Of a stretch of DNA of 64,000 nucleotides, positions 19,771 through 21,610 are shown in pieces. Numbering within the stretch: the stretch's first letter is position 1; the number at the start of each line of letters is the position of its first letter. Source of the stretch: Escherichia coli (GTDB taxonomy: Bacteria > Pseudomonadota > Gammaproteobacteria > Enterobacterales > Enterobacteriaceae). The notes beneath the pieces are model-generated. The model saw only the letters and a program-made list of their open reading frames with translations, ran no database searches and had not been told where the DNA came from. Location of the stretch: assembly GCF_030013205.1 (NCBI RefSeq), contig NZ_CP122648.1. The stretch is one strand, 5' to 3'. Made by a program: the position numbers and the translations under genes.

Positions 19771-20682
19771 ATGCTGTGGTTCAAAAATTTAATGGTTTAC
19801 CGTCTTAGCCGCGAGATTTCGTTGCGTGCAGAAGAGATGGAAAAACAGCTAGCCTCGATGGCATTTACCCCATGCGGCAGCCAGGACATGGCGAAGATGG
19901 GCTGGGTTCCTCCGATGGGATCGCACAGCGATGCGTTAACGCACGTTGCCAATGGTCAAATTGTTATCTGCGCGCGCAAAGAAGAAAAAATCCTCCCGTC
20001 TCCGGTGATTAAACAGGCGCTGGAAGCGAAAATCGCCAAACTGGAAGCGGAACAGGCGCGTAAGCTGAAGAAAACCGAAAAAGATTCGCTGAAAGACGAA
20101 GTGCTGCACTCTCTGCTGCCACGTGCTTTCAGCCGTTTTAGCCAGACAATGATGTGGATCGACACGGTTAATGGTTTGATTATGGTGGACTGCGCCAGTG
20201 CCAAAAAAGCGGAAGATACGCTGGCATTACTGCGTAAAAGCCTGGGGTCGTTACCGGTTGTACCATTGAGCATGGAAAACCCGATTGAACTGACGCTGAC
20301 CGAATGGGTACGCTCCGGCAGCACAGCACAGGGCTTCCAGCTGCTTGATGAAGCCGAGCTGAAATCACTGCTGGAAGATGGCGGCGTGATCCGCGCGAAG
20401 AAACAAGATCTGACCAGCGAAGAGATCACCAACCACATTGAAGCCGGAAAAGTGGTGACTAAACTGGCGCTCGACTGGCAGCAGCGCATTCAGTTTGTGA
20501 TGTGCGACGATGGTTCGCTCAAGCGTCTGAAGTTCTGCGACGAGCTGCGCGATCAAAACGAAGATATCGACCGTGAAGATTTCGCCCAGCGTTTTGATGC
20601 CGATTTCATCCTGATGACTGGTGAACTGGCAGCGTTAATTCAAAACCTGATTGAAGGATTAGGTGGCGAAGCACAACGTTAA
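19771..20682 (+). CDS. rdgC: recombination-associated protein RdgC
   Basis: ATG at 19771 gives 303 aa beginning [12 protein letters not shown], matching E. coli RdgC. Confidence 0.93.
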
Positions 20683-20700
20683 TTGCTGATTTACCTTTAA

Positions 20701-20737
20701 TGCCGGATGCGACGCCTGCCGCGTCTTATCCGGCGTA
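20701..20737. repeat. REP element
   Basis: tgccggatgcgacgcctgccgcgtcttatccggcgtac, the canonical REP palindrome, immediately downstream of rdgC. Confidence 0.7.
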
Positions 20738-20839
20738 CGAAGCTACACCAGGCATATAATTATTCGCTACGGCGGGCAATAATTTTTAGCGCAGCAATAT
20801 TATGCGTTTTACGCTGTAACTTGATCCAGGGGCGTTGTG

Positions 20840-21118
20840 TCATTGTTTTTCCTCAAGCCGGTGACGCGCTTCACTGCGAATTTTCCGCGTTGCCCCGGTT
20901 TTCACTAAATCCCGTAACTGCGAAAGAGCGGGTTGATCGACAAATAAAAGTAATGATGGCTCCTCTTTTAGCCACACCGTTTTCACATCGGCAGCCAGCT
21001 GTGGATTATTAATAGCCAGCGACCGATCCTGAGACTCCGTCAATGTCGTTAACAACATCGGGGTATGTGCGTTGCGCAATGCCGTTTGGCGCAAATGATC
21101 ATTGCGACTTTGCAGCAA
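20840..21118 (-). CDS. small hypothetical ORF (possibly ykiA-like)
   Basis: 92-aa ORF in the rdgC-ppnP interval where K-12 has a small poorly characterised ORF; no functional motif seen, so coding status is uncertain. Confidence 0.3.
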   Translation of the reverse strand: MLQSRNDHLRQTALRNAHTPMLLTTLTESQDRSLAINNPQLAADVKTVWLKEEPSLLLFVDQPALSQLRDLVKTGATRKIRSEARHRLEEKQ

Positions 21119-21325
21119 TGCACGCCACCATTCATCATCTGATTTATCTTTTATCGTCGCCAGTTCCGCAACAATATCTGGAGATCTTCACTGATATTTA
21201 TATCAACCTTGATGAATTATGAATATATCGGAAATCGAAAAAATCGCAGCAAAGGAAATATTATTATGGGTTTATGAGAGGACATTTCAGAAAAATGCCC
21301 TCCCGTTCATGGGGAAGGCGAGGAA

Positions 21326-21610
21326 TTACAGATAGCGGCACAGATAAGAGGTGGGTTCGGCAACTTGCAGATGAAACTCGCTGTGACCGGGAACATTAAA
21401 CACCGAACCGGCTTCATACACTTGCCAGTCGGTCGCGTCAGGCAGTAACACATTCAGCGCACCACTGATTACCGTCATCTCTTCAGGCTCAGCGGTGCTG
21501 AAGGTGTATTCACCTTCAACCATAACACCCACGCTGGCGCGACCAGTGCTGCTGCTGGAAAAGCCGATCGATTTCACTTTGCCGGAAAAGTACTCATTAC
21601 TTTGAAGCAT
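21326..21610 (-). CDS. ppnP: pyrimidine/purine nucleoside phosphorylase (YaiE)
   Basis: 94-aa match to E. coli PpnP/YaiE. Confidence 0.9.

What the first reader, a model, noticed from the sequence alone, without database searches (positions are those of the whole stretch)
21119..21325. AT-rich interval and small ORF between rdgC and ppnP
A 92-aa minus-strand ORF (20840..21118) with no recognisable motif is followed by ~200 bp of AT-rich sequence upstream of ppnP. It could be a small-protein gene or a pseudogene remnant. The ORF has no obvious ribosome-binding site that I can see, so its coding status is uncertain.
Basis: seen in the sequence. Interest (0 to 1): 0.15.

Follow-up and report, generated by a model that had tools for sequence, protein, structure and literature searches.

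The report
ykiA pseudogene remnant and its promoter
The small ORF is the already-annotated E. coli pseudogene ykiA, the last 112 codons of a 759-codon gene that is still whole in O157:H7, and the AT-rich stretch next to it is that gene's old promoter region, so the finding is ordinary and already known.

Summary
The window is E. coli (araJ-mak-rdgC-ykiD-ykiA-ppnP-aroM).

- **The ORF.** The 92-aa ORF (20840..21118, minus strand) is the part after the first TTG of a 112-codon open frame (20840..21178). That frame matches Pfam DUF2773 at E=2.7e-38. RefSeq annotates it as a pseudogene missing its N-terminus (ykiA).
- **Its origin.** In O157:H7 the same slot holds an intact 759-aa gene plus a 149-aa SF0329-family gene. 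The intact protein has a predicted signal peptide, a beta-helix and a helical-repeat solenoid.
- **Two deletions.** A 1939-bp deletion removed the start codon and codons 1-646. YkiD was detected by epitope tagging in K-12.
- **The AT-rich interval.** It is the original intergenic region. It holds the ppnP terminator and the ykiA promoter, which published work shows is activated by BglJ-RcsB.
- **Distribution.** About 84% of 5,426 complete E. coli genomes carry the double remnant, and about 8% keep the intact large gene.

Verdict: already known, low interest.

The parts
20840..21178 (-). ykiA pseudogene. It is 112 codons plus a stop, homologous to codons 647-759 of the intact 759-aa DUF2773 protein.
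   Evidence: PGAP pseudogene in the 100%-identical strain CFSAN018748 and in a K-12-like strain. Pfam DUF2773 at E=2.7e-38. Alignment to the O157:H7 gene at 96.8% identity.
21179..21183 (-). 5-bp filler (CTCCA) at the junction of the 1939-bp deletion that removed the start codon and codons 1-646.
   Evidence: Junction views against O157:H7. The same GAAGAT|CTCCA|GATATT junction is present in all 8 remnant alleles examined, including K-12-like strains and EC958.
21184..21325 (-). Original ppnP / DUF2773-gene intergenic region, AT-rich. It holds the terminator, the activator site, the promoter and the leader listed below.
   Evidence: 97.9% identical to the stretch of O157:H7 that runs from ppnP to the intact gene's start codon. 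Conserved in Escherichia sp. E4930 upstream of the intact gene. GC is 31-35%.
21291..21319 (-). ppnP intrinsic terminator: an 8-bp G+C-rich stem followed by a T-run.
   Evidence: Terminator scan. RNA fold of -15 kcal/mol, z=-2.5.
21287..21294 (-). Candidate BglJ-RcsB box TTTTCTGA, matching wwTTCykA (inferred).
   Evidence: Motif match. Its centre lies about 80 nt upstream of the predicted transcription start, and PMC3950696 reports 79 nt for ykiA. The box is conserved in E4930. The motif alone carries little information: 33 matches in the window against 29 expected.
21216..21221 (-). Candidate -10 hexamer CATAAT of the ykiA promoter, with no good -35. The predicted transcription start is near 21210 (inferred).
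   Evidence: Read directly from the sequence. GATATATTCATAAT is fully conserved in E4930. A second wwTTCykA match at 21228..21235 overlaps this core promoter, which fits the non-functional 'motif overlapping the core promoter' described in PMC3950696.
20760..20843 (-). ykiD, 27 aa (MTQRPWIKLQRKTHNIAALKIIARRSE). It is an in-frame 372-bp deletion derivative of the SF0329-family gene and keeps that gene's GAGGA Shine-Dalgarno sequence and its ATG, which overlaps the ykiA stop codon (ATGA).
   Evidence: PGAP CDS. Junction and translations. 26 of 27 residues identical to K-12 YkiD, which was detected by SPA tagging (PMC6001520 Table 1).
20693..20737 (.). REP-type palindromic element between the convergent rdgC and ykiD genes.
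   Evidence: Sub-threshold Rfam naRNA4 (REP-derived) matches at 20699..20734 (+ strand, E=0.012) and 20688..20735 (- strand, E=0.58). The palindrome is visible in the sequence.

Best explanation
The ORF and the AT-rich interval together are the decayed remains of a two-gene accessory insert between ppnP and rdgC.

**Ancestral state.** This state is still present in O157:H7 and about 8% of complete E. coli genomes. A promoter just after the ppnP terminator drove two genes. The first was a 759-aa gene for a protein with a predicted signal peptide, an N-terminal beta-helix and a long leucine-rich-repeat-variant/HEAT-like helical solenoid. The second was a 149-151-aa SF0329-family gene, with its start overlapping the first gene's stop.

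**What happened.** One ancient 1939-bp deletion removed the large gene's start codon and its first 646 codons. A second deletion of 372 bp, in frame, fell between imperfect direct repeats CA(A)GTTAC(A/G)GCG. It collapsed SF0329 into the 27-aa ykiD.

**What still works.**
- The promoter is still active. Published work shows it is activated by the BglJ-RcsB heterodimer.
- ykiD keeps its own ribosome-binding site and start codon. Its product was detected in K-12.
- The ykiA frame itself has no start codon, no ribosome-binding site and no signal peptide. It is most likely an untranslated or non-functional relic.

**Shown here:** homology, deletion junctions, distribution across genomes and family membership. 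**Taken from the literature:** promoter activity, BglJ-RcsB dependence and YkiD detection. **Inferred:** the exact positions of the box, the -10 hexamer and the transcription start, and the lack of function.
For: **Annotation.** RefSeq annotates 21178..20840 as 'DUF2773 domain-containing protein, incomplete, missing N-terminus' and the next ORF as YkiD or hypothetical protein.

**Intact form.** The intact 759-aa gene plus SF0329 occupies the same ppnP-rdgC slot in O157:H7, EC42405 and another E. coli assembly. Escherichia sp. E4930 has the intact large gene in that slot.

**Deletions.** BLAST and junction views define both deletions. The junction is identical in 8 alleles from different lineages.

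**Family.** Pfam DUF2773 at E=2.7e-38.

**Distribution.**
- 4543 of 5426 genomes match the double-remnant arrangement over at least 80% of its length.
- 447 hold the deleted N-terminal 1.9 kb.
- 921 hold the SF0329 core.

**Further decay.**
- PK12 has an internal stop in the remnant.
- MS1665 has lost the remnant.
- STO_Bone1B has IS1 at the site.
- This window has an in-frame 3-bp deletion.
- dN/dS among remnants is 0.33-0.9, and 0.21 between two intact alleles.

**Literature.** The promoter was mapped by 5'-RACE and lacZ fusions and is activated by BglJ-RcsB (PMC3950696). YkiD appears in 'SPs detected in this study' (PMC6001520).

**Ancestral protein.** AlphaFold2 model with pLDDT 91: beta-helix at residues 65-176, then an all-helical solenoid. 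The family profile matches the leucine-rich repeat variant structure 1LRV at E=7e-13.
Against: - The frame is still open in 7 of 8 remnant alleles, and dN/dS is below 1. Some residual constraint or translation cannot be excluded, though the counts are small (2-21 substitutions per class).
- The region is transcribed, and the ATGA overlap with ykiD could in principle reflect coupled translation.
- The source of the 5-bp filler CTCCA is unexplained.
- The transcription start and box coordinates given here are my inference. Figure 2 of PMC3950696, which shows them, could not be read.
Confidence: 0.93

Rival explanations
1. The ORF is a real small-protein gene. A cytoplasmic helical-repeat protein of about 92-112 aa would be translated from the TTG at 21118 or from a non-canonical start, and kept under BglJ-RcsB control after the deletion.
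For: - The promoter is active when BglJ is present (PMC3950696).
- The frame is open in most alleles, and dN/dS is 0.33-0.9 rather than 1 or more.
- The downstream ykiD is translated.
- About 84% of genomes retain the remnant.
Against: - The ancestral ATG was deleted, and there is no convincing Shine-Dalgarno sequence.
- The TTG is an internal codon of the ancestral protein.
- The signal peptide and 85% of the protein are gone.
- There is a premature stop in PK12, complete loss in MS1665 and an IS1 at the site in another strain.
- PGAP calls it a pseudogene in every genome inspected.
- Retention can be explained by the age of the deletion and by neutrality.
Confidence: 0.05
2. The AT-rich interval encodes something of its own, independent of ykiA, such as a small RNA or the antisense 38-aa ORF at 21219..21335 (+).
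For: - The antisense ORF is open in six of the seven other Escherichia alleles checked.
- A plus-strand promoter-like match lies at 21235..21264.
Against: - No Rfam family matches within 21119..21325.
- The antisense ORF is interrupted by a stop in Escherichia sp. E4930, has no match to its start in one E. coli allele, and shows scattered substitutions in the others.
- The number of promoter-like matches is within chance: 3 found against 1.7±1.2 expected.
- The interval is fully accounted for by the terminator, the activator site, the promoter and the leader.
Confidence: 0.02

Closest known systems
E. coli K-12 ykiA (b0392) / RefSeq 'DUF2773 domain-containing protein' pseudogene
   Same: Same locus between ppnP and rdgC, same deletion junction, same frame. 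The 643-bp ppnP-rdgC interval is 95.4% identical to the K-12-like strain 1FA and 100% identical to strain CFSAN018748.
   Different: This allele has an in-frame 3-bp deletion, giving 112 codons instead of 113, and a few substitutions.
Intact 759-aa DUF2773 protein of E. coli O157:H7 (WP_120795310.1)
   Same: The remnant aligns with codons 647-759 at 96.8% nucleotide identity, and the upstream intergenic region is the same.
   Different: The window lacks the start codon, the predicted signal peptide, the beta-helix domain and most of the solenoid, which is codons 1-646.
YkiD small protein of E. coli K-12 (VanOrsdel et al. 2018, PMC6001520)
   Same: Same position, same length (27 aa), 26 of 27 residues identical (S7I), and the same ATGA overlap with the ykiA stop codon.
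   Different: Translation was shown in K-12 only. Here I also show that it is an in-frame internal-deletion derivative of the SF0329-family gene: 11 N-terminal plus 16 C-terminal residues.
BglJ-RcsB-activated promoters (Salscheider et al. 2014, PMC3950696)
   Same: ykiA is one of the ten loci shown there to be activated. The window keeps the intergenic region, with a wwTTCykA match about 80 nt upstream of a CATAAT-based predicted transcription start.
   Different: The exact published site and transcription start could not be read because they are in a figure, so the coordinates given here are inferred.
Leucine-rich repeat variant (LRV) protein of Azotobacter vinelandii (PDB 1LRV)
   Same: The family profile of the intact protein matches 1LRV at E=7e-13. 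The model is an alpha-solenoid.
   Different: The match lies at profile positions 330-435, outside the remnant. The intact E. coli protein also has a signal peptide and a beta-helix domain.

Membership tests
Pfam PF10971 (DUF2773) | HMM score above the curated gathering cut-off (25 bits) | tested here: met
   130.4 bits, E=2.7e-38, remnant residues 33-112 matching profile positions 1-81 of 81.
Intact DUF2773-containing beta-helix/solenoid protein (about 750-810 aa) | Full-length architecture: signal peptide, N-terminal beta-helix, helical-repeat solenoid | tested here: not met
   Only codons 647-759 are present. The start codon and codons 1-646 are deleted. The architecture comes from the AlphaFold2 model of the O157:H7 protein and 40 full-length relatives.
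Pseudogene (ykiA) | An intact orthologue at the same locus in relatives, with truncation that removes the start codon | tested here: met
   The intact gene lies between ppnP and rdgC in O157:H7, EC42405, another E. coli assembly and Escherichia sp. E4930. Deletion junction. PGAP flags it 'incomplete, missing N-terminus'.
Pseudogene (ykiA) | Relaxed selection and secondary lesions | tested here: inconclusive
   dN/dS is 0.33-0.9 among remnants and 0.21 between intact alleles, but counts are small. Secondary lesions do exist: a stop in PK12, loss in MS1665, IS1 in STO_Bone1B and a 3-bp deletion here.
Pseudogene (ykiA) | No translation of the frame | not testable with these tools
   Needs ribosome profiling or epitope tagging.
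Pfam PF25753 / NCBIfam NF049912 (SF0329 family), for ykiD | HMM score above the cut-off | tested here: not met
   The 27-aa product has no hit. Descent from an SF0329 gene is shown instead by DNA and protein alignment of both ends.
YkiD small protein | Same locus and near-identical sequence to K-12 YkiD | tested here: met
   26 of 27 residues identical, same position and same overlap.
YkiD small protein | Protein is synthesised | not testable with these tools
   Shown for K-12 by SPA tagging in rich medium (PMC6001520 Table 1). Not tested in this strain.
BglJ-RcsB-activated promoter | BglJ-RcsB box (core wwTTCykA) upstream of the transcription start | tested here: inconclusive
   Two matches lie in the 142-bp interval, one at the published spacing, but the motif occurs at chance frequency in the window as a whole.
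BglJ-RcsB-activated promoter | Activation by BglJ-RcsB in vivo | not testable with these tools
   Shown for K-12 ykiA by lacZ fusions, 5'-RACE and site mutagenesis (PMC3950696).

The most novel reading that the evidence does not exclude
The remnant operon may have been co-opted. After the two deletions, the BglJ-RcsB-controlled promoter would express a 27-aa chimeric peptide, YkiD, made of the N- and C-termini of SF0329. It might also express a cytoplasmic helical-repeat fragment. One or both would have gained a function of their own in envelope-stress or H-NS-antagonised regulons. That would explain why about 84% of E. coli keep the arrangement intact.
Probability: 0.05. Interest if true: 0.35.

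Novelty: already known. Interest (0 to 1): 0.1.

Why it matters
It matters little for biology at large. The locus is an annotated pseudogene with a characterised promoter and a catalogued small protein. Three modest points come out of the work:

- **How a detected small protein can arise.** YkiD is an in-frame deletion relic that inherited a working ribosome-binding site and promoter. Detection of a small protein is therefore not evidence of function.
- **A family defined on a fragment.** The Pfam DUF2773 model covers only the last 81 residues of a 759-aa protein with a predicted signal peptide and a beta-helix/solenoid architecture. The remnant's hit to it says nothing about that whole protein.
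- **A regulon member that is a dead gene.** One BglJ-RcsB 'target gene' in K-12 is in fact a pseudogene. This affects how that regulon is interpreted.

Tried and rejected
- **Defence system.** PADLOC models gave no hit for either intact protein.
- **Toxin-immunity or conserved two-gene module.** Rejected as a conserved module. Relatives of the large protein in other taxa stand alone, with no SF0329 neighbour. SF0329 relatives occur without it.
- **Function of the 759-aa protein from structure.** Foldseek returned only generic ARM/HEAT solenoids such as the PP2A A subunit and importins, at TM-scores of 0.37 or less.
- **Known RNA in the AT-rich interval.** Rfam found none. The only matches were sub-threshold REP-related hits outside the interval.
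- **Literature.** Searches for SF0329 and DUF2773 returned nothing relevant. The supplements of PMC3950696 are not held, so the published transcription-start coordinate could not be read.
- **Antisense 38-aa ORF.** Not supported.

Full report
**1. Observation**

The window is E. coli chromosome in the order araJ, mak, rdgC (19771..20682, +), ppnP (21326..21610, -), aroM, yaiA, aroL.

- The 92-aa minus-strand ORF at 20840..21118 exists and starts at TTG.
- GC falls to 31-35% at 21150-21299, against 51% for the window.
- The ORF limit is only the first-TTG convention. The same frame is open back to 21187, with the preceding stop codon at 21190..21188.
- Because ppnP is on the minus strand, the AT-rich stretch lies after ppnP's stop codon and before the small ORF. 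It is not upstream of ppnP in the transcriptional sense.

**2. What it is**

A megablast of 20683..21325 against 5,426 complete E. coli genomes matched 5,424 of them. One strain, CFSAN018748, is 100% identical. RefSeq annotates two features under the match:

- a 'DUF2773 domain-containing protein' pseudogene ('incomplete; missing N-terminus') at window 21178..20840, which is ykiA;
- a 27-aa CDS, 'protein YkiD' or hypothetical protein, at 20843..20760.

The 112-codon frame matches Pfam PF10971 at E=2.7e-38, so 'no recognisable motif' does not hold.

**3. The intact ancestor**

In O157:H7 strain H6437 the ppnP-rdgC gap holds two genes whose stop and start overlap: a 2280-bp gene for a 759-aa DUF2773 protein and a 450-bp gene for an SF0329-family protein. 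Both have lower GC (42% and 45%) than the window. BLAST and junction inspection show the window differs by two deletions.

*Deletion 1*
- It removes 1939 bp, from one base before the ATG through codon 646.
- Five bases (CTCCA, 21183..21179) sit at the junction.
- The remnant starts exactly at codon 647.

*Deletion 2*
- It removes 372 bp, measured against the 151-aa alleles.
- It lies between the imperfect direct repeats CAAGTTACAGCG and TCAGTTACGGCG.
- It is in frame. YkiD is therefore SF0329 residues 1-11 fused to its last 16 residues.

The same two junctions occur in all eight remnant alleles examined, including K-12-like strains and ST131 strain EC958. Each deletion therefore happened once and is old.

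Escherichia sp. E4930 carries the intact large gene, 73% identical, at the same locus. It also has a different, independent SF0329 deletion relic, MRLRRKTHNIAALKIIIRRSE. The pair therefore predates E. coli, and SF0329 has been lost more than once.

**4. Distribution and decay**

| State | Genomes (of 5,426) |
|---|---|
| Match the double-remnant arrangement over at least 80% | 4,543 (84%) |
| Retain the deleted 1.9-kb N-terminal part (mostly O157:H7, O55:H7, O145:H28) | 447 (8%) |
| Retain the SF0329 core | 921 (17%) |

Further lesions are seen in individual strains:
- PK12 has an internal stop in the remnant.
- MS1665 has lost the remnant and has a frameshifted SF0329.
- STO_Bone1B has an IS1 at the site and has lost both remnants.
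- This window has an in-frame 3-bp deletion.

Nei-Gojobori dN/dS over 105 codons is 0.33-0.9 among remnants and 0.21 between the two intact alleles. This is consistent with relaxed constraint, but it rests on few substitutions.

**5. The AT-rich interval**

Positions 21184..21325 are the original intergenic region. The stretch from ppnP to the intact gene's start codon is 97.9% identical to O157:H7, and the region is recognisably conserved in E4930.

The interval contains the ppnP terminator: stem at 21319..21297 plus a T-run, -15 kcal/mol.

Published work on K-12 mapped the ykiA promoter by 5'-RACE. lacZ fusions and site mutagenesis showed that the BglJ-RcsB heterodimer activates it. [quoted passage not shown]

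In the window, the core motif wwTTCykA occurs twice in this interval:
- TTTTCTGA at 21294..21287;
- ATTTCCGA at 21235..21228.

A CATAAT hexamer at 21221..21216 predicts a transcription start near 21210. That places the first box about 80 nt upstream and the second box inside the core promoter, which matches both published statements. This assignment is my inference. The motif alone occurs at chance frequency (33 matches against 29 expected in the window), and the figure showing the published sites could not be read.

**6. Is anything still made?**

YkiD is listed among the small proteins detected by chromosomal SPA tagging in K-12 grown in rich medium (PMC6001520 Table 1). The window's allele differs from it by S7I. 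ykiD keeps the SF0329 gene's GAGGA Shine-Dalgarno sequence six bases before its ATG, so it needs only the upstream promoter.

The ykiA frame has lost its ATG, has no convincing ribosome-binding site, and lacks the predicted signal peptide of a protein that was probably exported. I consider it a non-functional relic (confidence 0.93). Translation of the frame has not been excluded experimentally.

**7. What the ancestral genes were (side investigation)**

*The 759-aa protein*
- It has about 40 full-length relatives at 18-35% identity in metagenomes and genomes.
- A confident AlphaFold2 model (pLDDT 91) shows an N-terminal helix that looks like a signal peptide, a beta-helix at residues 65-176, and then an all-helical solenoid.
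- Foldseek finds only generic ARM/HEAT solenoids.
- The family profile matches the leucine-rich repeat variant protein 1LRV at E=7e-13.
- Its relatives elsewhere have no SF0329 neighbour.

*SF0329*
- It is unusually conserved, at 55-68% identity across Bacteroidota, Firmicutes, Proteobacteria and Bradymonadia.
- It has no PADLOC match.

The functions of both genes remain unknown. The pairing appears specific to this Escherichia locus.

**8. Verdict**

It comprises the ykiA pseudogene, its retained BglJ-RcsB-responsive promoter region, and the relic small-protein gene ykiD. Novelty: already known. Interest: low.

Noticed in passing
window 20760..20843 (-): The annotated small protein YkiD is an in-frame internal-deletion relic of a 151-aa SF0329-family gene, made of its first 11 and last 16 residues. 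It is not a small gene that arose on its own.
   Followed up: yes
[not shown]
   Followed up: partly
L004 vs L020 (intact DUF2773 alleles of O157:H7 and EC42405): Two intact alleles within E. coli are only 93.5% identical over 1.9 kb, with dS of about 0.28 in the last 105 codons. That looked high to me for two genes from the same species (no core-genome comparison was run). It suggests old allelic lineages or introgression from other Escherichia clades.
   Followed up: no
L021:6270-6345 (Escherichia sp. E4930): There is an independent SF0329 deletion relic (MRLRRKTHNIAALKIIIRRSE) with a different left breakpoint. Its right edge lies at the same GTTACGGCG sequence as in E. coli, so this may be a recurrent deletion hotspot.
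   Followed up: partly
L004:2357-2400 and L006 (O157:H7 and MS1665 SF0329 3' ends): The O157:H7 SF0329 allele ends ...ALKNYCPP* instead of the family-typical ...ALKIIARRSE*. This is a small frameshift at the 3' end, and the same change is seen in the MS1665 sequence. Even the 'intact' O157 copy is therefore slightly altered.
   Followed up: no
window 20693..20737: A REP-type palindromic element lies between the convergent rdgC and ykiD genes. It gives sub-threshold matches to Rfam naRNA4 (REP-derived) at 20699..20734 (+ strand, E=0.012) and 20688..20735 (- strand, E=0.58).
   Followed up: partly
window 21219..21335 (+): An antisense 38-aa ORF ([38 protein letters not shown]) runs through the promoter region and the ppnP terminator. 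It is open in five of the six other E. coli alleles checked (one has no match to its start) and is broken by a stop in Escherichia sp. E4930. It is probably spurious.
   Followed up: partly
Pfam PF10971 vs L004:2803-5082: The Pfam DUF2773 model (81 positions) covers only residues 679-759 of the 759-aa protein, a stretch that lies inside the ykiA remnant. The family name and its 'domain' therefore describe the tail of a helical-repeat solenoid, not a separate domain.
   Followed up: partly
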